Virus record (IMG/VR): IMGVR_UViG_3300009008_000022
Coordinates: 17,459 to 81,458 of that record
Source: a virus
Strand: one strand, 5' to 3'
Length of the DNA: 64,000 bases
The notes beneath the pieces were generated by a model. It was not told the DNA's origin and searched no databases. It saw only the letters and a program-made list of their open reading frames with translations. A program made the translations under genes and the position numbers. Shown here one piece after another: positions 38,367 to 63,100 of this stretch (its first letter is position 1; each line of letters begins with the position of its first letter).

Positions 38367-38381
38367 GGAGAAGGATCCGCC

Positions 38382-41300
38382 ATGCCTATTTGGCTAAAAC
38401 AACCGCCGCAGCCCGCGCCGATAATCCAGGCGAACAGCGCCTTGCTCACCATGCGCCAGGCAGAGCGCACGCCACCGGCCAGCCGCGGTGAGTTTGGGAA
38501 CATGAAGCAGGCCAACAGTGTGCGTGACGTGCTGGACGGGCTAGGTCTGGGGATGGATCTTGAGCGCGCCCTGGGCGAGCGCGTTGAGCAATGGCTGGCC
38601 TGTCGTACCCAGGTTGAGATCATGGAGCGCGCACGGCACGATCTGGCCGGAGCTGTGGCGGATCCCTACGTCCGGCGCGAGATCATGGGCCGCGCCATGA
38701 ACCTGTGGCTGCGCACCGTGCAACCGGCCGAGCGGGCGCCGAACCATGGGACCATGATCATCAAGGCCCAGGCTGCGCAGTTCGCACCGGACAACCGGCG
38801 GCGGTGGGGAGGTGGGAAGCCCTACGGCGGGCAACGTCCGCCCTTGAGCCGGACGGTGACAGGACAGCCGAGCGGTGGAGGGTGGGAGGAAGTAAAGAAC
38901 AGCGCCCATGGAGGTTGGCGCAGGCCGGACGGCCGCGGTGGTTACGAATATTGGTATCCAGGGCAGGGCGGCCCCGGTGGCGGCCCTGGGGGAGCTGGGG
39001 GCGAAGCCAAGCCTCACCCGAATGAGGGCCAGGGCAAGGGCGATCCAAAGCCACCTGGCGTAAGGTGGGCACCTGTGCCGCACCATGCGCCGGGAACATT
39101 CCGCCGGCCAGCCGAAGATCATTCCGCGGGCGGGCCAGCTCACGCTTCACGCATGGAGGCGCAAGGGATTGCCTCAGAGCCGCACCGCGGGGCAGCGGAG
39201 GGGGAGAGTCAAGGCAACGAAACCCAGGGCGACAAGCCCGCAGAATCAGGAAAGGACTCCGGCATCCCGCCAGAGCTGCAAGCGCAGCTCGCCCAGGCCA
39301 TTGAAGCCTACGGTATGGACGCGGTGAAAAAGGGGCTGGGGAGCGTGACAGAGGCCGCGGCGAAGGCGGCCGATGAGCAGTACCAGGCCAAGGCCGCGGA
39401 GCTGGGGAAACATGAGACAGTCCAGGCCGCGGTAAAAGAGCACTTCGGCGGCAAGCTGCGCAGCAAGCCGAGCGAGCAAGAGGTTAAACAGCTCGCAAAA
39501 AAGCTGGGCAACGATCCCGAGATCCGCAAGCTGGCTGAAACGGCCATGCAGGGCGCCGATGGTGCGGTGGTGGACGCGATAGCCCAGGCCGCGGTGGACG
39601 CAGCCCCCAAGGCCGATCCTGGCCTGGCTAAAAAGCTCCTGGTAGGCGCCAAGGTCGCAGCCAAGGCAGCTCTGCCGAGCGCGGCGTTTGGTTTCGTGGA
39701 CAACTTCATGCTGTACCTGGCAGGGGCGAGCATTGACACCATGATCGCAGCCATGGGTTTCGGCGCCGCGGTGGTGGCCGGCCTGGGCAACGCAATCAGT
39801 GATTCAGTGGGCGAAGCCGTGGCTGACAAGATGGAGCGTTTCCTCGACAAACTGCCAGGGCTGAAAGAGGACGAGAAGGATGTTCTGACCCCGGAGCAGC
39901 GTCAGAAGATCGAGAGCAAGGCTAAGGTCGCGGGCGTGTTTGTTGGCGCGATCATCGGCATGTGCCCGTTGCTGGTAGGGATCGGGTTTGGGGGAGCGCC
40001 AGCCGCCAAGTCAGAACGGCTGGTATTTGCCGGCGGCCGGTTGCTGCTCAAGAGCGAGCCGGACCCGTTGCCCGCCCTGGACGGAGCGCCCGAGCTGGTG
40101 TTTGTCATGGTGGACACCGAGCCGCGCGACGGCCTGTTTCTGGTCAAGGGAGCGGGGCACAAGTACCTCAGACGGATCCGCAACCCGAGCCCACCGCCCA
40201 ACTGGCGCTATCTGTACAAGTACCCAACCAGGAAGGGTTTGGTACACGACGATCACCTCGTTGAAGGGGCGAAATTCAAGGGCAAACACGGCGACCTGGA
40301 GGGCCACTTTGAAGTAACCGGAGTGGTCAAAAAGAAGGGCAAGCACGTTATCGCGCTGAAGCACGACGAGTCCGGCAAAACGATCTACGTTCACCGCAAG
40401 GACATTCAGGGAATGCTCACCCGCTATCACAAGGATGCGGGCACGCATAAGGAGCCGCGCAAGCGCAAGCCCAGGGCGCCCAGGGCGCCGGCTAAGAGCT
40501 TTCCCGAGCCGGACAAGAGCAAGGCAACCGAGGGCACCTACAGCGGCGAGCTGCCGAAGATCGGGCTCAGGGACACTCACGCATGGGAGGAGATGAAAGG
40601 CTTTGCTGACGATGAGCAAGCCGCGCGGGAATTGCTGGCGAGCTGGGACACGCACGGCCAGGAGTACGGCCTGATACCGCAGCCCAACGGGGTGATGATT
40701 ATGCGCCGGACAGCTCGCACCGGCAGCAAGGCGGTGAAAGAGGGCGCGTCTACCGTGGTGGCGTTCAAGGGCGACGGCAAGATAGAGCGCCAGCAAGGCG
40801 AGTACATGGTCATGGAAATGAGCGAGCTGATCCCGAGCCACAAGCCAGGGAGCTTTGCGCCGGACCCGCGCTACCCCGATGGTGTTCAGGAGCGCGTTTA
40901 CCACGACGATCCAAACGAGCGCGCGAAGGTGGAGGAGATCGCCCGCGGCCTGGATCCTTTTTTCGTGATCAACACCAATAACGACGGCGTTGGAGGGCCG
41001 CCCGTGATCACTCCAGACGGGATCGTGCTAGGCGGCAACGGTCGCACCATGGGGATCATGACGGCATACACGCACTACCCGGAGAGCGGGCAGAAGTACA
41101 AGGATCACCTGGCAAGCCAGGCCAGCGACTTTGGTTTCAGCTCGCATGACATTCAGGGCATGAGCCAGCCGGTGCTAGTGCGGCGCGTGGCGGTGGACGC
41201 GAATAACACGCAGAAGGCTCGCATGTGGGCGCGCGTGCTGAATGAGCCGTTGACGCAGGGCATGGACCCGCGCACCGAGGAAGTTGCGGTCGCGAAGAAC

Positions 41301-42332
41301 CACATGAACGAGCGCGTGATCGCCGCCCTGGTGGCCGGCATGAAAGAGGGCGAGACAATCCACGCCTTTTTGAGCGGGGCACATAGCCGTGAGTTTGTGG
41401 ACGGGTTGAAGCTGGCCGGCATCATCGACCGGTACAACGAAAGCAAGTATCGCCACGTTGACGCCACGGCCGGAGCTGACAAGCAAGGGCTGCTTAACGA
41501 GGAAGGGATCATGAGGATCCAGCGCGTGCTAATCGCCTCGCTTATCCCTGATTCTCGGCTGCTCAAGCGTATGCCGAAAAACATGATCACAGCTCTGGCC
41601 GGCAGCGTGCCGCACCTGTACCGCGCCCAGGCCGCCGGTTGGGATCTGTCCGGCGCGCTGGCCGCGGCGGCGGACGCCTGGCTTGACGCGAAACACCGGG
41701 AGTACAAGACAGCCGCCGCCTACCTCAAGGCCACCGAAATGGACTACGGCGACGGCGATAACAAGATGGCGCCGTTGATGAAAGATCAGGCCGCGGAGTT
41801 TATGTTTCGGATCCTGTTCAAACCGCAGGCCACCGCGACGGCCACAAAGATGCGCGAGCTGGCAAACCGCGCGGGAATGGCGAAGCAAGCCCGAGAGGAG
41901 CAGGACAGCGGCGGCATGTTTGCCATGCTGGGCGAAACCGCGGACGCGCCAGAGCCGGAGAAGTTGACCGACGCGCTTGATACGATCTGGGGTATCACGG
42001 CAGAGGGGCGCGGCCGGCGCCAGGCGGAAAAGGACGCGGCCAGGGCGGAACAGCTCAAGGCGTACCAGGCGCGAGCCGATGAAATGGGAATGCACGTCGA
42101 GCAGTACGAGGCTTACCAGGATTGGGCCGCGGAGGACAAGAAGTGGCAGGACCGGCAGAACAAGCGCAAGCGCAAGGCGCGCAAGCCGGACCCGAGGCCG
42201 GAGAAGCCGCCGATCATCCAAGGGCTGAGAGTGGGACACCGGGAGCACAACATGGGGCTATTCCGCGAGCACGATGCGAAGCGACGGCGCGAGCAGATGA
42301 AAGACGACAGCCGGGAGCGGGAGGCAAGTTAA
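38382..42332 (+). CDS. Giant modular protein A: GW/EYWYP module, TMEM65-like membrane domain, HKY..WRY module, DdrB-like ParB domain
   Basis: FGFVDN...AGLGNAISD..G...LTPEQ...GAIIGMCPL (39669-39980); PSH...Q.R.Y...GPPVI..DGIVLGGNGRT (about 40800-41700). Confidence 0.8.
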   Translation: MPIWLKQPPQPAPIIQANSALLTMRQAERTPPASRGEFGNMKQANSVRDVLDGLGLGMDLERALGERVEQWLACRTQVEIMERARHDLAGAVADPYVRREIMGRAMNLWLRTVQPAERAPNHGTMIIKAQAAQFAPDNRRRWGGGKPYGGQRPPLSRTVTGQPSGGGWEEVKNSAHGGWRRPDGRGGYEYWYPGQGGPGGGPGGAGGEAKPHPNEGQGKGDPKPPGVRWAPVPHHAPGTFRRPAEDHSAGGPAHASRMEAQGIASEPHRGAAEGESQGNETQGDKPAESGKDSGIPPELQAQLAQAIEAYGMDAVKKGLGSVTEAAAKAADEQYQAKAAELGKHETVQAAVKEHFGGKLRSKPSEQEVKQLAKKLGNDPEIRKLAETAMQGADGAVVDAIAQAAVDAAPKADPGLAKKLLVGAKVAAKAALPSAAFGFVDNFMLYLAGASIDTMIAAMGFGAAVVAGLGNAISDSVGEAVADKMERFLDKLPGLKEDEKDVLTPEQRQKIESKAKVAGVFVGAIIGMCPLLVGIGFGGAPAAKSERLVFAGGRLLLKSEPDPLPALDGAPELVFVMVDTEPRDGLFLVKGAGHKYLRRIRNPSPPPNWRYLYKYPTRKGLVHDDHLVEGAKFKGKHGDLEGHFEVTGVVKKKGKHVIALKHDESGKTIYVHRKDIQGMLTRYHKDAGTHKEPRKRKPRAPRAPAKSFPEPDKSKATEGTYSGELPKIGLRDTHAWEEMKGFADDEQAARELLASWDTHGQEYGLIPQPNGVMIMRRTARTGSKAVKEGASTVVAFKGDGKIERQQGEYMVMEMSELIPSHKPGSFAPDPRYPDGVQERVYHDDPNERAKVEEIARGLDPFFVINTNNDGVGGPPVITPDGIVLGGNGRTMGIMTAYTHYPESGQKYKDHLASQASDFGFSSHDIQGMSQPVLVRRVAVDANNTQKARMWARVLNEPLTQGMDPRTEEVAVAKNHMNERVIAALVAGMKEGETIHAFLSGAHSREFVDGLKLAGIIDRYNESKYRHVDATAGADKQGLLNEEGIMRIQRVLIASLIPDSRLLKRMPKNMITALAGSVPHLYRAQAAGWDLSGALAAAADAWLDAKHREYKTAAAYLKATEMDYGDGDNKMAPLMKDQAAEFMFRILFKPQATATATKMRELANRAGMAKQAREEQDSGGMFAMLGETADAPEPEKLTDALDTIWGITAEGRGRRQAEKDAARAEQLKAYQARADEMGMHVEQYEAYQDWAAEDKKWQDRQNKRKRKARKPDPRPEKPPIIQGLRVGHREHNMGLFREHDAKRRREQMKDDSREREAS

Positions 42333-44725
42333 TGGCGAAGGCAGAGAAGAAGGGCGCCGCCGCGGCCGGAGTCCGGTACGTCATGGACTGCCTGCTGGTG
42401 GAGGCCAAATTCGAGGTACAAGGGGCGGTGCACCTGTCCATGATTAAGGACCGGAGCGTGAGCGTTAAAACCTCAGAGATCGTCGCGCGCCTCAAGAAGT
42501 TCGCCCAGGCCAAGCTGGAGCTGGACCCGCGGTTTCGCGCCGGTTGGGGCAGCTCGCCAGTGACCGATGAGCAGCTACACGCAATCGTCGGGCCGTTGGT
42601 TGAAATGCGGGCCGGAAAGATCGTCAAGGGCGGTGAGCGGATCTGGTGCCAGGGAGGGCCAGCTCCGCGCCCTTTCGTTAAGGGCGAGCGGCCGTCCGGC
42701 GCAGGCTGGCAGGCCGTACCAAATACCAAATTTGGCGGGTACAGGCGCCGCGGCAAGGGCGGCAAGTGGGAGTATTGGTATCCCGAAAAGCACGCCAAGT
42801 TGGGCCATGGGTTTGAAGCTGAGCATGTGGAGCTGCGCGAAAAGCGCGACCGCGTTGCGGCCGACATAGAGCGCCGCGGCCTGGGGGTGGAGTACGAAAC
42901 GAGCCCAGGCCGGTATCTGGTTGTCATGCCGGACCCGTCGCACGCGGGCAAGGTCCGCACGCAGAGCTACGATGAGCACGGATTCTCTGGGCACCGCACC
43001 TATGACGATCTGCCAGCTCTGGCCGCGGACGTTGCCAAGTGGGAGTACAACGGGATCAAGCCAGCTCAGGCCGGCACGCTAGACAAGCTCGCCCAGGGCG
43101 AGCCATGGCGCCAGGCCGCCCTTCACCAGCAAGCGTTAAGGGAGATCGAAAGCCTGGAGAGGCAGGGGCAGGACGTGAGCGAGCTACACGCGGTCCTAGC
43201 TCGCAAAGGGTCAGAGGCGCTACTGGCGCACCTGGGCAAGTCGGAGGCGCCGCGGTTGCTCGCCCTGGGCGACCGGTTGGTCAAGGCTGGCGTTGGAGCG
43301 GAGCGGCAACAGATCATGTTTGCAGCTCGCCAGCGCAAGCAGTACCCGCCAGGTTACAAGCCGGAGCACAAGGTCAAGGGAAAGACGGTCAAGGTCCACA
43401 CTAACGGCTGGCAGGCTATCCCCAAGGGGCACAAGGGAGGCTATCGGCGCCGGACCCGCGGCGGGTGGGAGTACTGGTATCCAGACCATCACGCGCGGCC
43501 TGGGCTACACGCACCGAGCGTGGAGCCGCACGGCGGCACGTTGGCCGAAGCGGTGGAGCTGCGCGAAAAGCACGGCGTGCCGATCCATGTAAGCTGTGGC
43601 GCTGGGGTGGACAGTACCGGTTTGCTGGTAGGCATGTATCAGCAGGGGATCCGGCCGGATGCGGTTGTGTTTGCGGACGTGGGGAACGAAAACCCGCGCA
43701 CTTATATGTTCCTTCCCCACCTGGACGCATGGCTGAGATCGGTTGGCTTCCCGCCCCTAACCGTGGTGCGAAACAAGCCGACCGTTAGCGCCTCAGAAAT
43801 GGTGAGAGAGGCGCGCGGAAAGACTTACGCCACGTTGGAACAGAACGTGGTGCTGCATGAAACCCTGCCGTCAATCTCACTGGCCGGTGGCCGCGGTTGC
43901 AGCCAGAAGTGGAAACACCAGCCTCAAGAAGCCTGGGCAAACCAGCGCGAGGATTGCCAGTCGGCATGGGAGCAGGGCTTCAAGGTCACGAAGCTAATCG
44001 GCTACAGCTCTGACCCGGCGGACAAGCGCCGGCCGGATATGCCGGACGATGAGAAGTATCACTATCAGTACCCGTTGCGTGAATGGGGGTGGGATCGGGA
44101 GCGGTGCAAGAAAGAGATCGCCGCGGCCGGTATGCCCGTACCAGTCAAGAGCGCGTGCTGGTTTTGCACAGCGACCAAGCCGCACGAGCTGCGCCGCATA
44201 GTGAGCGAGTACCCCGACATCGGCCGCCGGATAATCCAGATGGAGGCCGCCGCGGAGGACAACCTACGCAAGATCCGCGGCCTGTGGGGCACACCGGTGA
44301 AGGGGGCCAGGGGCGCGCTAAAGAAGCCGGGAACAATGGCAGAGTGGATCATCGGGGAGGAGTTGCTGCCGGAGTTTAAGGGCCAGGATATTGTTGACCC
44401 GTGGTGGCGCCAATCAGGCCAGGTGACGCCCGGTAACGAGCACTTCAAGGTGGCGGACGTGATGCACCTTGTAGACGCGCCACCGCCGCCGGTGAGCCCG
44501 CTTGAGGATCTAAGCGGCCTGGCTCCGGTGGACACCGACGAGCTGCGCGAGCAGAGCAAGGCGCGAAAGCGAGGTGGTGCGGTTCAGACCAGCTTGTTTA
44601 AGAGCGCGCCCAGGGCGACGATGAGGGACGGAGATCAAAAGTTCTGGGCAGCCATGGCATTGATCCAGGCGTTTGATCAATTCGACAGCATGGGCAAGGA
44701 CGGCAAGCGGCATGGATCTGAATGA
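42332..44725 (+). CDS. Modular protein B: two GW/EYWYP modules plus a PAPS-reductase-like PP-loop domain
   Basis: SCGAGVDS, FADVG.E, CSQKWK, IGY, YPLREWGW.R..C, PVKSACWFC. Start coupled by TAATG at 42332. Confidence 0.8.
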   Translation: MAKAEKKGAAAAGVRYVMDCLLVEAKFEVQGAVHLSMIKDRSVSVKTSEIVARLKKFAQAKLELDPRFRAGWGSSPVTDEQLHAIVGPLVEMRAGKIVKGGERIWCQGGPAPRPFVKGERPSGAGWQAVPNTKFGGYRRRGKGGKWEYWYPEKHAKLGHGFEAEHVELREKRDRVAADIERRGLGVEYETSPGRYLVVMPDPSHAGKVRTQSYDEHGFSGHRTYDDLPALAADVAKWEYNGIKPAQAGTLDKLAQGEPWRQAALHQQALREIESLERQGQDVSELHAVLARKGSEALLAHLGKSEAPRLLALGDRLVKAGVGAERQQIMFAARQRKQYPPGYKPEHKVKGKTVKVHTNGWQAIPKGHKGGYRRRTRGGWEYWYPDHHARPGLHAPSVEPHGGTLAEAVELREKHGVPIHVSCGAGVDSTGLLVGMYQQGIRPDAVVFADVGNENPRTYMFLPHLDAWLRSVGFPPLTVVRNKPTVSASEMVREARGKTYATLEQNVVLHETLPSISLAGGRGCSQKWKHQPQEAWANQREDCQSAWEQGFKVTKLIGYSSDPADKRRPDMPDDEKYHYQYPLREWGWDRERCKKEIAAAGMPVPVKSACWFCTATKPHELRRIVSEYPDIGRRIIQMEAAAEDNLRKIRGLWGTPVKGARGALKKPGTMAEWIIGEELLPEFKGQDIVDPWWRQSGQVTPGNEHFKVADVMHLVDAPPPPVSPLEDLSGLAPVDTDELREQSKARKRGGAVQTSLFKSAPRATMRDGDQKFWAAMALIQAFDQFDSMGKDGKRHGSE

Positions 44726-47700
44726 CCTGTTACAGCGAGGGTTGAGAAAGGCGGAACAGCTCGATCTGTTTGGGCCGGAGCAACTAACCTCAGACAGAGG
44801 GCCACGAGACACCGTGAAGCCGGCCACGCCGCGCCGAGTTGGTAAGCCAGGCCGCGGCAAGCGCCGCAAGAGCAAGCGCGTTATACCGCCGCACCAGGGC
44901 CACATGACGCCACCTGGCAAGGGTTGGCAGGCTATCCCGCGGGGCAAGAAGGGCGGTTTCAGACGCAAGGGCAGCAACGGCAAGTGGGAGTACTGGTATC
45001 CCAACAGGGGAATCACTCCCAGCCCGCACCATAAAGACATTCCCGACAGGCCCGATCCGGCGAAGGATCCGAAGGGCGCGCTGGCATGGTGGGGGATGCG
45101 CCTTTATGAAGGCACCGTCAACGACGAGGGGTTTTGGCAGGACCACCGGAGGACAACCGGAGCCAGGCCGCGGGTTTACAGCTTGAGTTGGGATTATGGC
45201 CGAATGAGCCTGGCCCTGTTTGATGCAGTCGAGGGCATACCTCAACAGCAAAGGGCCGCCATTTTGGAGCCGACGCGGGAGCGAGCGCACTTCCCCCGCG
45301 ATCAGTTCACCGACATGGCCGAAAGCTATCGCCGGTTGGAGGAATACCAAGTCGCGGTGCGATTGAATGCCGAGCGCCGGCCGGCCGCCCCCGTCGAGGA
45401 CGTTGACGCCGCGGTGGACAGCCTGCAAGGGGTGGAGCCGGAGTCCGCCCAGGGCGCCGACGTGCCGCACCTGGAAGTTGAGGAGTACGACGGCCGCGAG
45501 GGCGATCCAAACCACCTTACGCGCAAGGAAACCGGCCGCGTAACGCCGCAAAGCCTGGCTCACTTAAAGGGGGCCAGGAAAGAGCACGGCTACATGCGCT
45601 GGCACGACGGCAGCGCCATTGGAGCGAAGGATCCAGGGGAATACTTCGGCAGATATACCAGGGAAAAGTGGGAGGCGTTTGTTGCCGACATTAAAGCGCG
45701 CGGCGTTCAGGATCCGGTTTTCATCGTTAGGAACCCAGAGCCAGGCACGCGGCACGATCCGGCTGGAACGTGGGTGTATGAGGGCAATCACCGCATAGCC
45801 GCGGCATTGGAGGCGGGGGTTAAAACGATCCCGGTAGAGATCCGCTACTTCGGCCACACTGAGCGCGACGGCCAGGCTGCGCCAGGGTGGGATCGTATGC
45901 CCGAGAGTGAGCCCGCCCAGGGCGAGCCACACGAGCCGGGGCCGGATACGTTTCACGGCAAACTTACGGCGCTACGGGCCGAGGCTGAAAGGCTGGACTT
46001 GCCCACGGCCGCCAGGCTGCTTAACCCGGAAGGCTGGCCCACGGACGATGAGAAGTTGGGCAGCGTGCTAATGGACGCCACCGCGGAGCTGGGCGGGTTG
46101 CTAGTAGGGGAGGATACGCCGGACAACCGCCGCCGCCGTGAGCTGCTAATCGAGGGGATCAAGGTCTGGACCAAGGATGGCGAGTACGAGCCGATCACGT
46201 CCCTGCATACCAGCCGCGAGGATCTTCAACGGCTGGGGTTTAGGACCATTGCCAAGTTCACTGATCTGAAAAAGCTGGGCTACCGTATCGTTCAGTGGGC
46301 GCGCGTGGTGGGCGAGGTGTACGGCGACAACAAGGACATGGCCGGTTGGGAGATCGTTCACGAGTATGACCCGATGCACCCCGACGCGGGCAGCGGCGCA
46401 GGGCTGGCCGGCAAGCGTGATCACAAGACGGGTGACGGGTTGGGCTATTGGGAGGCTCCAGCGCCCGGTGATGCGCCAGGGATGAGCCCCGAGGCGGTGC
46501 GCTACACGGCGCCGGCCGGACCCGCGACAAGCAAGGTCCATGAGCTGTTGACGGGGGAAGCTACGCGCTTGACGTTGCCAGGCGTAGACATGAAGGGCAC
46601 CAGCGTGCGCAAGCGCGGTGTTAATCCGGCCGATGCAATGGACCGCGGAAGGGCAGAGCGGGACAAGGCCAGGCGGGCGCAGACCAGCCTGGGGTTTGAC
46701 TACTCCGGCGACAGCCCGCACCACCAGGCAGAGCGCGCCAGGGAGCTTAGTATGGGGGCGGCCTGGGCGATCCTTAACCCGGATTTTGAACATACCTCGA
46801 CCGACGTTAAGCGCGTCCGGCAGCAGCTCGCAGATGATGCGGTTGAGCTGGCGAAGCTACAGGCCAGCGAGCCGGATAGCGAGGCAACGCGCGAGCTGGC
46901 TGAAATGCAGAAGCTCCGGCGGGCCGCGTTGCGCACGGTGAAGCCCAAAGGCAAGCGAGCCGCGGCGCTGACAGCTCGTGGGGAGAGTAAAAAAAAAGAT
47001 CCGGCCGCCGGGATTTATGAGCGGGTAGCCCAGGCATCGGGAAGTTCCGCAGCTTGGATGGTGCAAAGCAAGGCCCGCGAGGTTGCTCATATGCAGCCTG
47101 GCGACCACTTTATGAAGCCAGGCGGGATTTACGCGACCGCGGCCAAGATCACGTCAACCCATGTGATCGATACCCTGGGCAAAAAGCACACGCTGGCGTC
47201 CCTGTTTGGGCTGAAGCTGAAGGATAAGGATCTGGTAACGCTGGCCCTGGCGGAAGGCGCCAAAGAGCCGCCGCCCAAGCGCGGACCAAACCCGGATTGG
47301 GTAGCCGGCTGGGAGCGCATGAAGCCAGGCGACAGCTTCACCTTGCCAGCCGATCCGCGAGGGCTGAGCTACCACGGGCCAGTGTTGGCCGGAGCGCGCG
47401 AGTACAAGGTTACAAGGCGGGTGGGAGATCGGACCTTTGAGGTGGAATTTCAGCACCCGGAAGGGCCAATAACCGAGGCCGAAGCCAGGGCGGCGCATGT
47501 AGACCACAAGGGGCGCCCGCGCGGGAACAGCGGCCTGGCCTACCATGGGCAGAAGTTCCGAGCTGAGATCAGCCGTTACCATGATGGATCGTGGGGCGTT
47601 GATCTCCTCGACCCTAACCCCACGTCTTACATTTCAGCTCACCCGGACGGCGGTGGAGCGGCGCCCACTGAGCAGAACAATGGAGGGCACGAGGGGATCG

Positions 47701-49601: not shown

Positions 49602-49628
49602 ACGGCCGCATGGAAGATCAACGAATAC

Positions 49629-55200: not shown

Positions 55201-57104
55201 AGGCGCGCAAGGCGCCAGAGAATCAGCTTGGGTTTGACTTTAGCAGCCATGAGCCGAAGCCGGCAGCCAAGGCAGCCAGAGCGGCCAAGCCGACCGGCGG
55301 CGAGTCGCACGCGCAGCTCTTAGGCATGGGCTGGCGCCCGATTGAGCACCCGCGGGGAGGCAAGCACGGCTACTTTAAGATCGTGGGCGGCAAGAGGCGG
55401 TATTACTACCCTGACTTTGTGCCACACGGGCACCACGGGCACCGGCCGCCGCCAACCGCCACAGACGGAGAGGAGTTGTTTAGGACCAAAGCCGCGCGCT
55501 GGTATGAGGATAAAAACGGCGTGCTGTTGGTAGTAGATCGCGATCCTTTCTATGATCCACCGCGCGGTTACGGCGTTTATCGGGCGAAGCCGATACCCCA
55601 CAAGGACACGCACCAGCTCAGACGACACCGGGGATTCTCTTTTCACCCCACGGCCGGAGAGGCGCAACACGCCCTGTCAATAAAAGCCGAGCGCGAGGGG
55701 TGGCGACACGTTCCCATGGACGAAATAAAAGAGGCGGCGGAAGCCAGGGCAAGGCCAGCGCCGAAGCCGAAGCCGAAGCCGGCGCCAGAGCCAGAGCCCC
55801 GGCAGGCCAGCCTTGCTTTTTCTCCAGGCGAAACGGTGGAGGTTGCACAGGCGACCTTTACGCCCAAGCGGGTGGGCAACACCATAGCCGCGGTGCGCGG
55901 TGAGGTGTTTCACGCCCTGGGCACGTCCGGCAATCAGTGGGAGGCGTTGATCCCGGTGGACTACGCCGATGATGGCAAGGGCGGTGCGTTCCCGGTTTAC
56001 AAGATGCCGAGCGGGTATCAGCTCGTTGACACGCACCTGAGATCGGCACACGCGGCGGGGGTGGACGGCACGAGCTGTCAGATATGCGGGACGCGGATCA
56101 AGAATGTTTGCCATATCGTGCACCACGACAAACGGATCCGGTTGGAGGTGGGCAGCGAGTGTGTTCAGAAGTTTTCCAACGCGGAAATGCCACAGCAGGC
56201 CCAGGCCGCGATCAAACTGCTCAAGATCAAGATCAAGCCGGAGGAGTTGCCCCACATTAACGAGCTGGCAGAGCGCGGCGTACCGATGGACGTGGCCGTT
56301 GTTCGCGCCAGGGCGCGCAGCGCGGCCGGCCGAGCTTGGGACAAGAAGCACAGCCCGCCCACCGCGGAGCAGGAACAGTGGTGGAGCACCATCGGCCAGG
56401 GCCAGCTAGAGGAAGCGCGCCGCGGCAAGCGTGGGGGCGGCTATGTGGCGGATCACCTGTATGAGCGGCTAATGCACCCGGCGCACGACGCACCAGGCAG
56501 CGGGCACAACGGCCTGGGCTGGCACAATTCCAGTTGGTCACGCACCAACCGCGGCGGCCGGTGGGAGTTGCACGAGGGGCTAACGCTGGCGGAAAACTAC
56601 GATGAGGCCCGCGCCGCGGCCATGGAAGCCAGAGAGGAGAAGGCCGCGATCAAGGCTTATCCCGAGCTGATCAAGTGGGCCACGATCCTGAAAGAAACCC
56701 GCGGTCACAAGCTCACCGATGCGCAGCGCGCGGAGATCCGCCAGGCGCACGACGCCGCTACAAAGTCCGGCGAAACCAGAGTGCCAGCCCAGACGGACCA
56801 TGATCGGCTAGTGGGCCTAAACGCCGTGGCAAAGCGCCGCGCCCAAGTGGCCTGGGATGATGAGCACGAATACCCGCGCCGTACCAATGAGGCCAAGGCC
56901 GCGCGAAACGCCTTGGAGGACTACTTTGAAGCGCAGGATAAGCTCCGGTCCTACACCGACTATGGCTATAGCCCGCCGGACGCCTTGAAGTATCGAGCCA
57001 GCGGCGAGTCAATCACGCGGTTTAGATACCTCGACGCGCTAGGGCCGAATGAGCGAGAATACTACCGGCAACGCTTGAAAGAGGCTGGTTTGGAGCTGAA
57101 ATGA
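52206..57104 (+). CDS. Giant modular protein E: two PAPS-reductase-like PP-loop domains, small W-rich modules, Zn-finger
   Basis: SAGGGLDS...KSACVYCP (52254-53030); SSGGKDS..HADLG..CTSALK..GVRRQE..RLSCLWCP (53740-54580); CQICG...VGSECV. Confidence 0.82.
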   Translation: MGQQQQLGFDFGGEKKRVKVLSAGGGLDSWAMWLRAKARGELPDLVIFADVGDPEGKHPAEWPSTYQHLREVFRPDVEAQGVEFKWLTAEDIPVRSHRKSCKSCGEQHPEGFDSLYAYLRHMRNLPTGSSKMCTSAGKVERIGQWVEDRYPDVDEIEMWIGYGAEETGRLKKNRYAQGQGRRVNRYPLIEEKLCREKELVIAMASGHPVPRKSACVYCPMSSRGDFLTLLKEQPKMFQMTLDMEENSKLTEARRKRLRYSGTGEHMPNLLEWVTNTGRYEFTPTGRRTKPYISSRDKEDCPCCGNKKASKATGSDYAHAGTGREIPVDVTELDAPGHVIAIHVDKKTGEPYVDHKLNIPYMEEAHGPITPETPIINYGTKPIVGLETTFTPHILYVGPRGGRWADPKHRIHWDPKVHGTVTSQTRRIKKAEVMLKGGKFPIGTIRTWRDGKRYRKVREGQWQEVAPARQAQQLDLFAAMDSRVTEKDREPICSRPPPVSVPPEIKDALDRGGYLIINSSGGKDSHALTYALATCPELAAYKDRMIVYHADLGRAEWPGAGAKAEEIAKQFGLPFVKVKRDASINRETGKREVWEGDMLTHMEERAAWPSMTTRICTSALKTGPIWKALRRRFSKEGVPIVSALGVRRQEGEGDKVNAGSRWFAEEWHQGGDFGTKSVKEPVRLEVREVSHELAPWPSPSKKDLRAVKRGTVNRSVKREAYEWNPLVDWDLSHVWGATRESGVDRHYAYDLGSSRLSCLWCPLSSQADKVAAAKAHPEILRQWLDAENKMRATHEQRRGFWAEHIDRGQVEGGMEVTEPKDGGVPLYAFDAARMSQAEIVDMKRNGGKYSKKRGTVEIPKRYLKPFLEYGTKGNQGESLLALMARLGVTLEKAASDPAFVRELVKRAREHGRQMDRYQLAVERVIEVKDRVARANGATRERLLRLYQREMDQLAGIGAQLKGSHPFPSSGEGIAREQAARKSLLDRGQAVAARMEERMEKARKAPENQLGFDFSSHEPKPAAKAARAAKPTGGESHAQLLGMGWRPIEHPRGGKHGYFKIVGGKRRYYYPDFVPHGHHGHRPPPTATDGEELFRTKAARWYEDKNGVLLVVDRDPFYDPPRGYGVYRAKPIPHKDTHQLRRHRGFSFHPTAGEAQHALSIKAEREGWRHVPMDEIKEAAEARARPAPKPKPKPAPEPEPRQASLAFSPGETVEVAQATFTPKRVGNTIAAVRGEVFHALGTSGNQWEALIPVDYADDGKGGAFPVYKMPSGYQLVDTHLRSAHAAGVDGTSCQICGTRIKNVCHIVHHDKRIRLEVGSECVQKFSNAEMPQQAQAAIKLLKIKIKPEELPHINELAERGVPMDVAVVRARARSAAGRAWDKKHSPPTAEQEQWWSTIGQGQLEEARRGKRGGGYVADHLYERLMHPAHDAPGSGHNGLGWHNSSWSRTNRGGRWELHEGLTLAENYDEARAAAMEAREEKAAIKAYPELIKWATILKETRGHKLTDAQRAEIRQAHDAATKSGETRVPAQTDHDRLVGLNAVAKRRAQVAWDDEHEYPRRTNEAKAARNALEDYFEAQDKLRSYTDYGYSPPDALKYRASGESITRFRYLDALGPNEREYYRQRLKEAGLELK

Positions 57105-60100
57105 GCAAGATAGACGATCTGGTAGCACGCGGGGAGGAACGGCTGAGCAAGATGATGCAGCTTGGCTTGTTTGACAACCTGGGCGGATCGTCGGGAGCTG
57201 GGGAGCATTTGCCCGACTCCCATACCAGCAAGCCGAAGCGCGAAGCGCGCCACCAGGGCGAAACCAAGCCGGACAAGCCGAAGCGCCCGCCAGGGCCGGA
57301 CCTGAGCACGATTCACGAGGTTGACGCCCACCGCGACAGCGCGCAGCAACACCGCGCGCACGCGCACCGCGCCAAGCTATCCGGTGACGCGGAGCTGTCA
57401 GACCTTCACCGCGCCGCGGCATTTCGGGCGGATCTCGTGGCAACGTACCTGGACGCTGGCAAGCCGGCCGCGGAGGTTGAAACCGCCAAGCAATCCGTTG
57501 CGGAGGCGGTAGACACCATCGGCCGGTTAGAGGCGAGCCGTAAAGCCGAGGCCGAGCATGAGCGCCAGCGCCAGCACCGCGAGAAGCAGATCAGCGGCGC
57601 CAGGGGGCACGCTTCTGCTCTGGTCAGCGCCGGCAAGGCCACGCCGGAGGGGCTGCGCGTGCTGGCCCGTGGAATGGAGGATAGGGGCTGGAAACACGCC
57701 GCGAAGGAATACCACCGCGCCGCAGACCAGTTGCAAGGCGCGCAGGCTACGGTGAGCCAGGCGCAGCTCGCAACAATGCTGGACGAGGTTACTGAGCGCC
57801 GGCCTGGCGGGCGGGTGGTTAAGCCAGGGACAACGCCGGAGCAAGCGGCGAAAGCTGCCGATGCCCTGGAGTCAATGCTGGACGCTAACCCGGTAGAGAA
57901 GCGCACAAGGGCGGACGGCAGCAAAAACTGGCAAGAGACAAACCAGCACGCCGTACTGCGAGTTATCGTTGAAAAGCTCAGGGAGCACGCAAGCCCAGGG
58001 CCAGAGGTCGCAGAGGCAGCCAAGCCGGCCGCGGCGCCAGCTCCGGCCAGCAAGCACCACGCTGGCGAGCCGCCCCCCGGTGGAGGTTGGCGCCGGACCA
58101 CGAAAGGGTGGGCCAGAGGCCGCGGCCAGCGTTACGAATGGAAGCCGGTGGAGTGGTGGAAAGAGGGAGAGGGGAAAGCCAAGCCAGCGGCCAAAAAGAA
58201 GCCCAAGCCACAGAGGGAGAGGCCCGATGTTCGACCCGAAGAAAATGATCAGCCCCGAGCCGCCCGAGCTGCCGGAGCACCTGAAGCTAAACCCGAGCCC
58301 GAGTCTGAGGTATCAGGTAGACGGCCTGGACGATCTGCCGGAGGACGAGCAACAGCAGATCCTAGCCATGATGCGGACGCCGGAGAAGCCGAGCACACCG
58401 CGCCCGACCTAGCCGCCCTGGAGGCCGGCGCCCAGGCGCAGCAAGGCAAGCGCCAGCCGACCGGCAAGAAAAGCGGCCCGTCTATCCAGCTTGAGGCGGA
58501 CCTGTTGCCGCCGATCCCAGATGAGGCGCGGATCAGGCCGGACATTGCACCGTTCCCTGTGCCGCAGGGGCCGATCAAGGATCTGTACCCGCACCAGCGA
58601 GAGGCCGCGGAGCGGATCCTGGCGAGCTGGCGCGAGCGGGACGGCTGCCTGATTGCCGATGAGGCCGGCCTGGGCAAGACGCTATCCGGCGTTGCCGCCA
58701 TGATGCAGCGCGGAGGGCGCCGGAACCTGATCGTGGTGCCTACCAAGGGCAAACGCGGCCTAATGCGCCAGTGGCAGGATGAAGGGCTGGCCCTGTACGG
58801 AGTCCGCGGCAAAGGGAAGGATGAGCTGGACCCGGAGATCGATGGAACATGGCTCATTGGCTACAATGATCTGTATGAATCCGTGGCCGCCGAGGATGAG
58901 TTTGACGACTGGCACGTCGTTGACACCGACGCGGTTGAGGAGATCCTGAATCGCTACACGCACCGCCGTGCGCAATGGTGGAGCGCCGGCCTGGCCGACA
59001 GGGCAGCCGAAGCGATCAAGGATGAGATCGAGTGGCAGGAATGGGGCACCCGCAAGAACAAAGAGGAGATCGCAGAGCTGCGCCGGAATTGGGCCGATGC
59101 GGTTGAGATCGCGAAGCGGATCGAAAAGCGTTACCAGGGGGATTACCCGGACGGTCTGCCACAGCGAGTCATGTTCCAGGGAATGTCAGAGCTGGCGACA
59201 GAGGTGCAAGAGGACCGTCGCGCAGCTCAGCGGGAGAAGCTGAAAGGAAAGCGGACGCGGCGGTTGCGCAAGGCTCTGTTTGACGGCCAATTTGACACGA
59301 TCTTGTTTGATGAGTGTCACGGCATGGTCAACCAGAAAACCACCACCGCCAAGGCGGGCAAGCTGCTACAGGACCAGGCCGGCAAGGTGCTTTACATGAG
59401 CGCCACGCCTTACACCTACATTCGGGACATGAGCTACCTCAAGCGCCTGGGGTTGTTTGAGCCGGAATTTAACGAGGACAAGAACAGGCTGGAAACCTCA
59501 GACGAGGCGTTTATCCGGTGGGTTGTTTCTCTGGGCGGCGAGCCGTCCGAGGGGTGGGTTGCAGACCCGAAAACGCCCAAGGCCAAGGTCGCGGTGGCGG
59601 CCAAGATGCACACCGAAGGGTCCAGAATCAAGCGCGTGACCAGCCTTGAAGGCACGCGATCCATGTTCCACATGATGCCGCAAGAATCTCTGTCGGAGGA
59701 CGCGCAGAAAACGCTGGAGATCGGCGGCAAGGTGTTTGGGATCATGGAGCGGTATTGGAGGAGCCTGGCCGGCGCGCACTACAAGAACTGGAGCCGGCAG
59801 TACTTGGAGACACAGAAGGTAGACGCCGCGGTTGCCATTGCGCGGCGCGAGCTGGAGAAAAACCCCAACGCTCAGATCGCGTTCTTCACCTCGTTCAAGG
59901 AATCGGACCACGGCCATATCCGCAACGCGCCGGACGGGATCCGGCGCCTGGCGGAACGGGCCGCAGAGGATCCCGAAAAGTACTTTTGGTTCGACCCCGC
60001 CCAGGCCGCGGAGGACATAGCCGAGATAGAGGCGCTGATACCGCAGCTCCCGCCCGTGCTGCGCGGGCCGGACGGTGAAAACGAGGCGATAGTTGACCGC

Positions 60101-63100
60101 CTGACCCGAGAGTTTGGAGGGCCGAAGAAGGTCGCTCAGATCCACGGCCGGACCAGCAAAAAGCCGGAGGTTGAACAGGCCCGTTACCAGAGCGGAGAGG
60201 CCAAGGTCGCGGTCTGCACCATGAGCAAGGGCGGCACCGGGATCAGCCTGCACGACAAGGTTGGCAATGCGCCGCGGATCCAGATCAACCTGTCCCTGCC
60301 CTGGACGGGCAATGAGTTTGATCAGGTTAAGGGCCGGTCGCACCGCCTGGGCAGCAAGAGCAACACAGACATTCACTGGATGGTGGGCGACCACCCGACC
60401 GAGCAGCACAACGCCGCGATTTGTGGCAAGCGCCTACAGGCCGCGGGCAGCCTCACGATTGGCAACCAGGATCTTGCCCAGGACAGCGCGCACCTGGCGG
60501 ACTTTGACGAGGGGGACGGCGCCGGCGCGGATCTGACCGACGATCCCGCCGAAGCCTATCGGATCTCGCACGGCACAGACCGAATGATCCGAGAGGGAGA
60601 GGGCACCGACGAAGGCAAGGAGCAGCGGTGGCACTTTCGGAAAGTGGCCGAGCGACACCGGGCAGGCGGCGACGTTGTTGGGGAGGTGACAGAGCACTTG
60701 GAAGCGCAGCGCAAGCGCAAGACAGAGCTGGAAGCGCGCCGAGCATCCGAGCAGCTAAAGCAGGCCGCCGGCATTAACACGCATTGGGATCCGACCGCGC
60801 ATGTTTGGGTATTGGATCGTAACTCGCTGAATTGGAGCCAGAGCGAAGCCCTGGATCGGTTTATCGCGCGCAAGACAACCAACGCGCGGAGCTTGTTTTA
60901 CCTGCATGAAACCCACATTGACGCCCACAGTATGCCCGCCCTGGCGAAGATCATGGAGGCGGACAAGCATCCGGTGGATATGCGGGACGTGGTGCAAAAA
61001 GCGGTGAAGGCAGAGCGCGCGATCATTGACACGATGCGCGGAGCCACCCGCAGGCGTGACATACGAATGGAGCCGGTAATTAACGGCGACGGGGATCTGG
61101 AGTTTCACCTGTCCGGCAACAGCTTTGCGTATCAGCACGGCATGGAGGCGGCCGGCGCCAGCCTGGTAGACATGGGCGACGGCGACGTGCGGCGCTGGAC
61201 GTGGGTTGTACCGGAGCAGGCCGCGGCCAACGTGATGGAAAATTTCGAGCGGGTTGACCAGGAGCGCGACTACCCGCACCGCTTGAACACCTACGGCCGC
61301 GCCAGGATCGATGAATACAGGGAGATGCACGGCATGGATAAGTCAGAACGGCTAGAGGCTCTGTTTGCGAGGGGCAACGCCTTGCGCAAGGGCGAGAGTC
61401 CTCCGAGTGGATTCACGCAGATCACGGGCAGCGCCAAGGGCGGCTGGCACAAGAAAGAGGGGAACCATTACGTCTACTGGTATCCCGGCCAGGGCGTTGT
61501 CAGTTCGCGCCACAGCAGCGACGTGCACGCGGATCACTCCAAATTGCCGGAGGGGTTTAACAAGATGCCCCTGGAGGACCGCGCGGAAATGACCGCGCAT
61601 TGGGATCACGTCCGGCAAAACCTGGCAGAGTACAAGCCGCGCACCTACCACGGCGATACGCAGGCGGCCGTGGTGGAACATCTGGAGGACATGCGCCGAG
61701 CTGGCAACCTCGTGCCGTCGAATGCTGCCCTGGCAAAGAAGATGATGCTCACGCAGCTCAAGCACGGCCGCGCCGCGGGGATCCCTGAGCCCGCCCTGGC
61801 GAAGCTCATGGAAGAAAACGTCCGCAAGCTCTGTATGCAAGAGGTGGAGAGCGTTGGGCGCACCCTGGGAGATCACGGCGTGCGCCACCTGGCGAAAAAC
61901 GCCGAGCAGACCGACCGGATCTTTGACGCGGTAGTCGCGGGAGGCGGCCAGATCACGCCCATGGAGCGGTTCATGGCCCATCAGGTGCACATCGATCACG
62001 ACATGGGCTACACCATCGGCGCGATTGCCAAGGGCGGGTTTGCCGTTGCGGACAAGTACCACCCGCAGGCCAGCGCCGTGCTGGTGAGGCAGCAGGCGGA
62101 CAAGTACAAGGCGCTGTTTGGCGACAAGTACCAGGCGTTTCACCAGGCCGTGCTAACCCACAGCCGCAGCGGCGTGGACTGGAAAAACGATCCGTTTACC
62201 AGCGCGATCCGGCTGGCCGATAACACTCACCTGTTTGCGGACAAACTGCCCGAGGTGTTGATGGACTCCCGCCTGGGCTCCGAGGTGATGGTAAAGATCA
62301 AGCTGGCCGCCGAGCTGATCCCGCCCACCGTGGAGGTGCGAAAAACCGACCCGAAAACCGGAAAGGTCAAGGTGAAAATGAAGCGCACCGAGCAAGATAA
62401 GGCGCGCTTTAATGCCCTGATTGGGAGCATTCGAGGCCAGATGCACGCCGCGGTGGACGGCAATTCGGAGCTGCCAAAGTCGATCAAGGCTGCGCTGAAA
62501 AAGGCCATCGGTGAGATCGGGGAGCTTACGCCCAAGTTTCTGGTGTCGCGCCTGGCGGGACGTGATCCACAGTTCCGGTTTGAGGGCGGCGACATGCACG
62601 TCACGATCCAGCAGAGCGCAGCTCGTGAAACCATCGGGCAAGTGTTTGGCGACGATCAGCCCGACAAGCAGTTCCGCAAACTGCTGGAGGACTACGACAC
62701 GAGCCCCGAATCGGCGTTTGACGCCAAGCCGCCGCCGCCGCATGTCCAGGTGGGCAAGGACGGCAACGGGCTGTTTTTCCAGTGGCAGAGCGGGGAGTCC
62801 GAAAACCAATCCCACCCCGTTGAACAGCGCCACCGGGAAGTGATGGAGCGCGTTAAGGGGGAGTTTGAAAGGGTCAAGGCCATGCCGGCGGGCAAGGCAA
62901 AGCAGGCCGCCCTGGACAAGTTCTTTGCGACGGACGTTGCCAAGGCGCTGCGCCAAATCTGGACGCTGATCAAGGCGGACAAGGCGCGCGAGGATGAGCA
63001 AGAGCAGGAGCCGCCCAAGGGCAAGGGCGAGGCCCCACCGGACAAGCCGGAGGGCGAGGAGCCGCCGCCAGAGGGCGAGGATGAACAGGATCCGCTGGCG

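What the first reader, a model, noticed from the sequence alone, without database searches (positions are those of the whole stretch)
38868..61486. Repeated ~30-aa module P-x-G-x-GW-x6-8-GG-[YWF]-RR-x5-7-[WY]EYWYP in every giant protein
Seen copies: A 38868-38960 (PSGGGWEEVKNSAHGGWRRPDGRGGYEYWYP); B 42692-42784 and 43406-43483; C 44910-45002; D 51222-51314; E 55329-55412; F 58070-58148 (degenerate) and 61388-61486. Other small basic/aromatic modules sit at equivalent positions: HKYLRR..WRYLY (A, about 40146), VGPRGGRWAD and FPIGTIRTWRDGKRYRK (E, 53385-53598). Several copies start just after an hxK[GA] site (FVKG, LHKG, LRKG). Inference: a small beta-meander that binds DNA or the capsid interior and acts as a packaging or co-ejection tag for each processed fragment, functionally like the T4 capsid-targeting sequence.
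Basis: partly seen in the sequence, partly recalled or inferred. Interest (0 to 1): 0.8.

Follow-up and report, generated by a model that had tools for sequence, protein, structure and literature searches.

The report
Conserved header domain on phage cargo proteins
Six giant multi-enzyme proteins encoded next to the head genes of an uncultured phage all carry the same small, basic, aromatic-rich ~35-residue domain; it is unnamed in Pfam, occurs in hundreds of related phage protein clusters, and probably marks each enzyme cassette as cargo that is packed into the capsid, cut apart and injected with the DNA.

Summary
All eight claimed copies are in frame at the stated coordinates, and every one of the six giant ORFs has at least one. 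A profile built only from foreign proteins recovers seven copies (i-E 1e-16 to 3e-6). The F copy at 58061-58168 is degenerate.

The module (PPxG[WFY]xPIPx[GS][KR][KH]GG[YFW]R[KR][RK]...[WY]xYWYP) matches 400 protein clusters, mostly large proteins with 1-6 copies. These carry the phage 'polyvalent protein' repertoire: ddrB-ParB, InPase, LPD1, ART-PolyVal, SAM lyase, TopoIB, DarB-like MTase-helicase. It has no Pfam match and no significant fold match. AlphaFold2 predicts a 3-4-stranded beta-meander (core pLDDT 83-93) behind a disordered leader.

In seven genomes the module ORFs lie in the TerL-portal-protease-capsid block. Among 185,579 prokaryote genomes it was found only on one phage-like MAG contig.

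About half the copies follow a hydrophobic-x-K-[AGS] site 4-10 residues upstream (~5% expected). The same site sits near the N-terminus of the capsid protein in five of these phages. A QLxLFG motif often lies between site and module.

Best reading: a new header domain of capsid-packaged cargo cassettes, probably a DNA or capsid-interior handle. Its function is inferred, not shown. The scan has noted analogous but sequence-unrelated tags on other phage DNA.

The parts
38349..42332 (+). Giant ORF A (1327 aa): module, TMEM65-like domain, ddrB-ParB
42332..44725 (+). Giant ORF B (797 aa from the ATG that overlaps A's stop): two modules, PAPS-reductase-like domain
44712..49601 (+). Giant ORF C (1629 aa from ATG 44712): composite header, module, ParB-like domain, DUF3560
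49629..52205 (+). Giant ORF D (858 aa): methyltransferase, module
52206..57104 (+). Giant ORF E (1632 aa): two PAPS-reductase-like domains, second-type header, module
57101..63727 (+). Giant ORF F (2208 aa): degenerate module, Sbno/SNF2-type helicase, module
38859..38963 (+). Module copy in A (no strict hxK[AGS] upstream)
   Evidence: independent profile i-E 1.7e-9
42680..42787 (+). Module copy B1, preceded by FVKG
   Evidence: i-E 1.1e-16; AF2 core pLDDT 83-93
43385..43486 (+). Module copy B2; a QxxMF motif lies at 43307; the PAPS-reductase-like domain starts 27 aa downstream
   Evidence: i-E 2.2e-15
44898..45020 (+). Module copy in C, including the predicted fourth strand (RGIT)
   Evidence: i-E 2.3e-16
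51213..51317 (+). Module copy in D, preceded by LHKG
   Evidence: i-E 1e-13
55305..55415 (+). Module copy in E (divergent); a QLGFDF motif lies at 55224
   Evidence: i-E 2.7e-6
58061..58168 (+). Degenerate module copy in F
   Evidence: found only by the self-trained profile (28 bits); missed by the independent profile
61388..61489 (+). Module copy F2, preceded by LRKG
   Evidence: i-E 8e-16
39042..39119 (+). Possible front-half remnant of a module in A (PPGVRWAPVP..GTFRR)
   Evidence: E 6.5, not significant; by eye only
49899..49991 (+). Possible remnant in D (PGYGW...GGW)
   Evidence: not significant; by eye only
40140..40256 (+). LVKG followed by GHKYLRR..WRYLYKYP..GLVH: possible divergent back half of the module
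   Evidence: by eye; not found by either profile
53388..53441 (+). Second-type header module (Y-V-G-P-R-G-G-R-W-A-D-P-x-H-x-I-x-W)
   Evidence: same motif in 13 foreign proteins, 12 directly after hxK[AGS]; also at the N-terminus of the G002 module protein
44712..44774 (+). Composite header at the N-terminus of C: hydrophobic leader ending in LRKA, then EQLDLFG; the module follows about 40 aa later
35627..37393 (+). Large terminase, directly upstream of the giant-gene array
   Evidence: phrog_38, E 5.6e-54

Best explanation
The module is a previously unnamed, independently folding domain of about 35-40 residues. It is a three- to four-stranded antiparallel beta-meander, strongly basic (mean net charge +4.2 over 32 residues) and aromatic (5.6 W/Y/F). 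It forms the first folded element of individual enzyme cassettes in phage 'polyvalent' proteins, the large multi-enzyme proteins encoded among the head genes and thought to be packed into the capsid and injected with the DNA.

It belongs to a composite header with four parts: (1) a disordered hydrophobic leader ending in hydrophobic-x-K-[AGS], (2) often a QLxLFG motif, (3) a short basic or proline-rich linker, and (4) the module. A His/acid-rich helix or a fourth strand follows, and then the enzyme.

Inferred steps, none shown. The giants enter the procapsid. The head-maturation protease cuts after the K, at the same short site that these phages' capsid proteins carry near residue 25-30. Each released enzyme then begins with the module.

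My preferred role for the module is a nucleic-acid handle. It would hold each fragment on the packaged DNA, so that the fragment leaves with the DNA and acts on it in cis, as P1 DarB does. Initial loading into the DNA-free procapsid would then depend on the leader or another contact, not on the module.
For: Reality and breadth:
- 400 cluster representatives at E<=1e-3 and 59 at E<=1e-10. They are mostly large proteins (up to 3298 aa); in 77 of the best 150 hits 2-6 stretches pass i-E<0.01.
- Nearly invariant G, W/F/Y, P-I-P, GG, R, Y-W-Y-P.

Cargo repertoire:
- The window has ddrB-ParB, methyltransferase, PAPS reductase and Sbno helicase.
- Homologs have InPase, LPD1, ART-PolyVal, TopoIB, SAM lyase, RadC and a DarB-like MTase+SNF2 pair.
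- In P0004 modules precede the ART domain and the MTase-helicase pair.

Head-gene context:
- The window runs TerL, then six translationally coupled giants, then the contig end; the contig begins inside the capsid gene.
- Module ORFs lie within about 10 kb of the portal on the same strand in G002, G014, G015, G016 and G017. In G007 five of ten copies do; the other five lie on the opposite strand, 8-20 kb upstream.
- In the MAG contig the modules lie 8-20 kb upstream of the capsid gene.
- G002 encodes a head-maturation protease between the giants and the capsid gene (phrog_1028, E 4e-50).

Phage restriction:
- An exact DNA pattern for the module gives 21 IMG/VR contigs and 0 of 185,579 prokaryote genomes.
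- A second pattern gives one true hit, a 98.8-kb MAG contig with five modules and a capsid homolog.

Site and leader:
- hxK[AGS] lies 4-10 aa before the module in 123 of 262 internal and 22 of 37 near-N-terminal copies (about 5% expected). Twelve proteins start directly at the module.
- 12 of 13 copies of a different small header also follow the site.
- Five capsid proteins (32-74% identical) all carry L-[RN]-K-A about 25-30 residues from the Met and 0-1 other sites in about 450 aa.
- The leader is predicted disordered (pLDDT <55) and the core confident (83-93).

Nucleic-acid handle:
- Charge and aromatic content are far above the protein background of +0.5 and 2.1.
- Small proteins consist of leader + module + poly-lysine tail: P0134 (91 aa), P0177, P0194, P0078.
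- The cargo enzymes act on DNA.
- QLxLF clamp-binding-like motifs are enriched (161 against 35 shuffled), and 54 of 311 modules have one within 50 aa upstream (10.7 expected).
- The best PDB sequence match is the Tyr/Arg hairpin CDR-H3 of the RNA-binding Fab BL3-6 (E 0.03, analogy only).
Against: - No experiment or virion proteome exists for any module-bearing phage, so packaging, cleavage and binding are all inferred.
- No cultured phage relative was found, although those tblastn searches were probably blinded by the low-complexity filter.
- Half of the copies lack the strict site, and the site motif is not enriched overall in the six giants.
- G002 has only one module among several large multi-domain proteins in its head block, so the module is not obligatory for such proteins.
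- The capsid-protein site could be conserved for structural reasons among homologs.
[quoted passage not shown] It was not seen there. This favours a virion-specific partner over plain DNA binding.
- The fold is too small for a significant structural match.
Confidence: 0.45

Rival explanations
1. The module is the true capsid-targeting domain. It docks each giant onto a procapsid protein (scaffold, inner capsid surface or portal) before DNA enters, and several copies per polypeptide raise avidity.
For: - Loading must occur in a DNA-free procapsid, so some protein-protein contact is required.
- The module is restricted to phages and absent from cellular and conjugative-element DNA.
- Most carriers share homologous portal, terminase and capsid genes, so a conserved partner is available.
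- 49 of 311 copies (16%) lie within 30 aa of the protein N-terminus, as with the N-terminal signals of T4 IPIII and P1 DarB (PMC9024508).
Against: - Most copies are internal. One signal per polypeptide should suffice, yet up to six occur.
- G007 has ten modules but no detectable homolog of the capsid or terminase genes used by the others.
- Small leader+module+poly-K proteins have no cargo to target.
- The short leader ahead of the cut site looks more like a T4-type targeting peptide.
Confidence: 0.25
2. The module works only after injection. Together with the adjacent QLxLFG motif it tethers each enzyme to DNA or to the sliding clamp (host or phage-encoded), or to another conserved host hub.
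For: - QLxLF-type motifs match the published clamp-binding consensus and are 4.6-fold enriched. They are often placed as K-A-E-Q-L-x-L-F-G just ahead of the module.
- The phage encodes its own clamp-like processivity factor (26869-27978).
- The cargo enzymes are DNA-acting.
Against: - Only 17% of modules have such a motif within 50 aa.
- Conjugative-element polyvalent proteins face the same host task but lack the module.
- No clamp binding has been tested.
Confidence: 0.15
3. The module has no ligand. It would be a structural punctuation mark in long disordered linkers, such as a folding nucleus, a solubility element, or an exosite that presents the neighbouring site to the protease.
For: - It sits between low-complexity A/K/E/P-rich linkers.
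- The site lies at a fixed distance of 5-8 residues upstream.
Against: - Near-invariance of solvent-exposed Arg, Lys, Trp and Tyr in a 35-residue sheet across 400 clusters argues for a conserved ligand.
- The capsid protein carries the site without a module.
- Twelve proteins have the module without a leader.
Confidence: 0.1

Closest known systems
Phage/prophage polyvalent proteins (Iyer, Burroughs, Anand, de Souza, Aravind 2017, PMC5512222), with P1 DarB and DdrB as prototypes
   Same: They are large proteins that string together disparate enzymes (ddrB-ParB, MTase-helicase, InPase, ART, LPD1). They are encoded beside portal and terminase genes and are predicted to be packaged and injected. 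The paper predicts processing into units.
   Different: - The main text of that paper names no such ~35-aa module, and its LPD alignments could not be read here.
- Pfam, which holds many LPD families, has no match.
- No zincin-like MPTase domain was detected in the six giants. Processing would therefore fall to the head-maturation protease.
T4 capsid-targeting sequence of IPI-III and Alt; P1 DarB N-terminal 30-residue signal (PMC9024508)
   Same: A short N-terminal element marks proteins for incorporation into the procapsid. In T4 it ends at a hydrophobic-x-charged cleavage site of the prohead protease. The cargo is injected and counters host defence.
   Different: - There is no sequence similarity.
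- The T4 signal is an unfolded ~10-residue peptide that is removed. This module is a folded domain downstream of the putative cut and would be retained.
- It recurs internally, up to six times per protein.
- The putative site has K where T4 has E.
WW domain (and other single-sheet aromatic mini-domains such as choline-binding repeats and propeller blades)
   Same: - About 35 residues with a three-stranded antiparallel sheet.
- It opens with P-x-G-W. An aromatic residue lies 11 residues after the first Trp.
- A second Trp lies near a terminal Pro.
- WW domains appear among the weak Foldseek rows (TM about 0.45).
   Different: - No Pfam WW match at E<=10 and no WW protein in the PDB profile search.
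- Foldseek E is about 3.
- The W-to-P spacing differs: W-Y-P here against W-x-x-P.
- The module is strongly basic.
- The resemblance is one of architecture only.

Membership tests
Polyvalent proteins (Iyer et al. 2017) | Two or more domains of disparate biochemical activity in one polypeptide | tested here: met
   A has TMEM65 + ddrB-ParB. C has ParB-like + DUF3560. E has two PAPS-reductase-like domains. F has a Sbno/SNF2 helicase plus long unassigned regions.
Polyvalent proteins (Iyer et al. 2017) | Signature polyvalent-only domains (ddrB-ParB, InPase, LPD, ART-PolyVal) | tested here: met
   ddrB-ParB in A (E 3.9e-21). InPase, LPD1 and ART-PolyVal in module-bearing homologs.
Polyvalent proteins (Iyer et al. 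2017) | Phage type: encoded in the neighbourhood of portal/terminase head genes | tested here: met
Polyvalent proteins (Iyer et al. 2017) | Packaged in the virion and injected | not testable with these tools
   No virion proteome is available, and no cultured relative was found.
T4-type capsid-targeting sequence | Short N-terminal peptide removed at a prohead-protease site | tested here: not met
   The module is a folded domain, mostly internal (262 of 311 copies), and lies downstream of the putative site. The leader ahead of it fits this feature better, but cleavage is untested.
T4-type capsid-targeting sequence | Sufficient to direct a foreign protein into the capsid | not testable with these tools
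   Needs a fusion experiment.
WW domain (Pfam PF00397) | Match to the family profile | tested here: not met
   No Pfam hit for seven module segments at E<=10. No WW protein among the PDB profile hits at E<=10.
WW domain (Pfam PF00397) | Three-stranded sheet superposable on solved WW domains | tested here: inconclusive
   Foldseek rows for ITCH, NEDD4L and Fe65 WW domains have E about 3 and TM 0.43-0.45. VIA best Z is 2.9, to propeller blades, and there is no match for model 2.
Beta-clamp-binding motif (for the adjacent QLxLFG element) | Pentapeptide matching QL[SD]LF / QxxLF in a flexible region | tested here: met
   161 matches against 35 in shuffles. The commonest forms are QLGLFG, QMGLFG and QLSLFG.
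Beta-clamp-binding motif (for the adjacent QLxLFG element) | Binds the sliding clamp | not testable with these tools
   No complex prediction or assay is available.

The most novel reading that the evidence does not exclude
The leader/cut site, the QLxLFG motif and the beta-module together form a modular 'address label'. It would let uncultured ~70-105-kb myoviruses fuse arbitrary anti-defence enzymes into polyproteins, load them into the procapsid, and have the head protease cut them apart. Each enzyme would then be delivered already clamped to the injected DNA, through a DNA-binding mini-domain plus an N-terminal clamp-binding peptide exposed by the cut. Searching for the label would list the injected arsenal of a whole phage lineage.
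Probability: 0.2. Interest if true: 0.8.

Novelty: new variant of a known kind. Interest (0 to 1): 0.6.

Why it matters
Capsid-packaged, injected proteins are a phage's first move against host defence, but they are hard to recognise from sequence. Only a few targeting signals are known (T4 CTS, P1 DarB N30), and they do not generalise.

A conserved, easily searched header domain with an adjacent candidate protease site would do three things. It would flag cargo cassettes in hundreds of uncultured phages. It would define the boundaries of the mature enzymes, many of which have no annotation. It would also offer a portable handle for loading foreign proteins into capsids.

It also makes the 2017 polyvalent-protein hypothesis directly testable. 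That hypothesis says these proteins are packaged, processed into units, and act on the incoming DNA.

Tried and rejected
- The search for related loci with the eight-copy alignment failed because no stretch was conserved enough. The 17-base EYWYP pattern gave 32 loci, and only 16 were true on profile check.
- tblastn of single modules against 50,697 phage records and 72,556 plasmids gave nothing even at E<=10. That implies the low-complexity filter masked the query, so I treat these as uninformative, not as absence.
- Megablast of 22 kb against the phage records found no match. tblastn of whole protein B found only PAPS-reductase homologs.
- ESM Atlas gave no usable hit.
- Fold searches: Foldseek PDB had no hit at E<=1e-3. 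VIA wide gave best Z 2.9 for model 1 and none for model 2. BFVD gave one probable true instance, an uncultured-phage Zeta-toxin protein (prob 0.99, 38% identity), and otherwise noise.
- WW-domain membership is rejected on profile evidence.
- Recombination-hotspot idea: the copies share only 49-67% nucleotide identity, with many synonymous differences. Conservation is therefore at the protein level.
- Fixed-stoichiometry assembly (propeller-like) is rejected because copy number per genome ranges from 1 to 10 or more.
- Global enrichment of hxK[AGS] in the six giants is rejected: 34 observed against 35 expected.
- A literature search for the motif string found nothing relevant. The supplements of PMC5512222 are not held, so identity with one of its unnamed LPDs cannot be excluded.
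One search was a mistyped query.

Full report
**1. Setting**

The window is the last 64 kb of an 81,458-bp IMG/VR viral contig (CheckV 61% complete). The contig starts inside the C-terminus of a major capsid protein. It continues through head-decoration, adaptor, sheath and baseplate genes, which mark it as a myovirus, and then replication genes.

The window then holds the large terminase (35627-37393), a 192-aa ORF, and six giant ORFs A-F that run to the contig end. The six are translationally coupled: the stop and start codons overlap at A/B and E/F, B and C overlap by 14 nt, and D and E abut. On the circular map the giants therefore lie between terminase and the missing portal/protease region ahead of the capsid gene.

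Pfam and PHROGs find ddrB-ParB, a TMEM65-like domain, DUF3560, a ParB-like domain, an N6-methyltransferase, three PAPS-reductase-like domains and a Sbno/SNF2-type helicase. This is the repertoire of phage 'polyvalent proteins' (PMC5512222).

**2. The observation**

All eight stretches translate in frame to the quoted peptides.
- A profile of the eight copies hits nothing else in the six-frame translation of the window; the next best hit has E 0.34.
- An independent profile from 307 foreign instances, with the window's proteins excluded, recovers seven copies at i-E 1e-16 to 2.7e-6.
- The F copy at 58061-58168 is degenerate and rests on the self-trained profile alone.
- Copies share 49-67% nucleotide identity with many synonymous changes, so the selection is on the peptide.

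**3. Breadth and consensus**

The eight-copy profile scored against 1.84 billion cluster representatives gives 400 proteins at E<=1e-3 and 59 at E<=1e-10. They are mostly large proteins (up to 3298 aa); in 77 of the best 150 hits 2-6 stretches pass i-E<0.01.

Over 244 instances the pattern is P-P-[GP]-x-G-[WFY]-x-P-I-P-x-[GS]-[KR]-[KH]-G-G-[YFW]-R-[KR]-[RK]-x(1-2)-G-G-x-[WYF]-x-Y-W-Y-P-[GD]-x-G. A His/acid-rich A/E/K/P segment follows.

Mean net charge is +4.2 and there are 5.6 aromatic residues per 32 residues. The whole-protein background is +0.5 and 2.1.

**4. Is it known?**
- No Pfam family matches the module alone at E<=10 or overlaps it in full-length hits.
- PHROG matches cover other parts of the proteins.
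- The main text of PMC5512222 does not describe it, and its supplements are not held.
- A full-text search for the motif found nothing relevant.
- The PDB profile search finds only the CDR-H3 (RQGYRRRSGRGFDYW) of the synthetic RNA-binding Fab BL3-6 at E 0.03. This is a chance compositional match. It is still a useful analogy, because it is a Tyr/Arg beta-hairpin selected to bind nucleic acid.

**5. Fold**

AlphaFold2 was run on 33- and 46-row alignments of window and IMG/VR copies.
- Model 1 has mean pLDDT 72 with the core at 80-84. It predicts four short strands.
- Model 2 (copy B1 with flanks) has its core hairpin at pLDDT 83-93. The upstream leader, including FVKG, is below 55. A short helix follows YWYP.
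- The fold is therefore a three- or four-stranded antiparallel meander behind a disordered leader.
- No fold search is significant. WW domains, choline-binding repeats and propeller blades appear only as weak look-alikes.
- BFVD returns one probable true instance, in an uncultured-phage Zeta-toxin protein.

**6. What it travels with**

Precomputed Pfam domains on module-bearing proteins are InPase, LPD1, ddrB-ParB, ART-PolyVal, TopoIB, SAM lyase/DUF3293, DUF3560, Sbno and SNF2 helicases, PAPS reductase, methyltransferases and RadC.

In P0004 (3034 aa) modules precede the ART domain and a DarB-like MTase-SNF2 pair. In P0020 and P0043 they flank SAM lyase.

Small proteins exist that are only leader + module + a poly-lysine or His-rich tail: P0134 (91 aa), P0177, P0194, P0078 and P0099.

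**7. Genomic context and distribution**

| Genome | Size, completeness | Arrangement |
|---|---|---|
| G002 | 105 kb, 100% | TerL ... 1121-aa Zeta-toxin protein, portal, two ORFs, module protein, 2211-aa SNF2 giant, head-maturation protease (phrog_1028, E 4e-50), capsid |
| G014, G015, G016, G017 | all 100% | module ORFs within about 10 kb of the portal, same strand |
| G007 | 86% | ten copies: five just downstream of the portal, five on the opposite strand 8-20 kb upstream |

Copies per genome range from 1 to 10 or more.

An exact DNA pattern for the commonest module spacing finds 21 IMG/VR contigs and none in 596 Gb of species-representative prokaryote genomes. A second pattern finds three loci, of which one is real. 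That locus is a 98.8-kb contig in a Planctomycetota MAG, carrying five modules in 1243- and 2705-aa ORFs upstream of a capsid homolog (50% identity). It is evidently a phage contig.

**8. The header around the module**

Position of the site:
- The motif hydrophobic-x-K-[AGS] ends 4-10 residues before the anchor glycine in 123 of 262 internal copies and 22 of 37 copies near an N-terminus. About 5% is expected.
- N-terminal examples read like M-x-x-I-L-x-L-A-D-L-V-K-[AGS].
- Twelve proteins begin directly at the module, so the leader is not part of the fold.

A second header and a composite form:
- A different small header, GP[YF][IV]GP[KR]GG[KL][WY]ADPxHx[IV]xW, occurs in 13 foreign proteins and in window ORF E at 53388-53441. 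In 12 of the 13 foreign proteins it follows the same site.
- QxxLF motifs of the clamp-binding type are 4.6-fold enriched (161 against 35 shuffled).
- 54 of 311 modules have one within 50 residues upstream (10.7 expected).
- In 28 cases the site ends exactly one residue before the Q, as in L-L-K-A-E-Q-L-G-L-F-G.
- Window ORF C begins with exactly this composite header.

The site in other head proteins:
- The capsid proteins of five module-bearing phages (32-74% identical) all carry L-[RN]-K-A about 25-30 residues from the start. They have 0-1 other sites in about 450 residues.
- The G002 protease itself has five such sites.

Limits:
- The motif is not enriched overall in the six giants: 34 observed against 35 in shuffles.
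- Only its placement is non-random.

**9. Reading**

The evidence supports a cargo-cassette header for capsid-associated polyvalent proteins. Cleavage after K by the head-maturation protease is a reasonable inference from the shared site but is unproven.

Loading happens before DNA enters, so any DNA-binding role cannot explain incorporation. The recurrence of the module at each cassette, its charge and exposed aromatics, the poly-K companions and the DNA-acting cargo point to a job needed by each fragment after processing. I favour a handle on the packaged DNA, for co-ejection and action in cis.

The rivals are procapsid docking, host-phase clamp/DNA tethering, and a ligand-free structural role. 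The strict restriction to phages argues for a virion-linked rather than a generic host-side function.

The T4-CTS analogy fits the leader better than the module. 'One tag per fragment' is too strong.

**10. Relation to earlier notes of this scan**

Analogous but sequence-unrelated tags on giant head-module proteins have been noted on other phage DNA. One of those notes describes an F-x-K-[SAG] site shared with head proteins. No other window shares this module's sequence.

Noticed in passing
window 53388-53441 (ORF E); L050:525-700 (G002 module protein N-terminus): A second small conserved header, GP[YF][IV]GP[KR]GG[KL][WY]ADPxH[TK][IV]x[WY], occurs in 13 foreign module-bearing proteins. In 12 of the 13 it directly follows hydrophobic-x-K-[AGS]. 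It has no Pfam match in the proteins scanned.
   Followed up: partly
window 44712-44774 (C), 52206-52250 (E), 57101-57180 (F), 55224 and 43307: Clamp-binding-like QLxLF(G) or QLGFDF motifs lie at the N-termini of giants C, E and F and ahead of modules. In homologs the composite form is hydrophobic leader, K-A-[EQT], then Q-L-x-L-F-G. The phage encodes its own clamp-like processivity factor at 26869-27978.
   Followed up: partly
L049:10660-12081 (G002), L051-L054 (capsid genes of G014-G017): All five capsid proteins carry L-[RN]-K-A about 25-30 residues from the Met and almost no other hydrophobic-x-K-[AGS] site. This is a candidate propeptide cut. The G002 head-maturation protease (L049:8691-9536) has five such sites.
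   Followed up: partly
L056 (JALORE010000001.1, 98,765 bp, MAG Planctomycetota); G020:C436:15333-36449: This is the only hit in 185,579 prokaryote genomes. It is a phage-sized contig with five modules and a capsid homolog, binned in a Planctomycetota MAG. That is a possible host clue for this phage lineage.
   Followed up: partly
window 39669-39980 (ORF A, aa 440-542): A TMEM65-family membrane domain (Pfam E 3.7e-16) is embedded in giant A, with a weak PT-VENN pre-toxin match overlapping it. A membrane domain is unusual cargo for a packaged protein.
   Followed up: no
window 42330-42334, 44712-44725, 52203-52208, 57101-57104: The six giant genes are translationally coupled (overlapping or abutting stop and start codons). 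This suggests a single operon with fixed stoichiometry.
   Followed up: no
window 10888-12948 (- strand): A separate 685-aa helicase matches the same PHROG family (phrog_62, E 2.5e-105) as the helicase region of giant F. It is a stand-alone paralog outside the head block.
   Followed up: no
P0134, P0177, P0194, P0078 (foreign proteins): Small proteins consist of leader + module + a long poly-lysine tract and carry no enzyme domain. They may be histone-like internal proteins.
   Followed up: no
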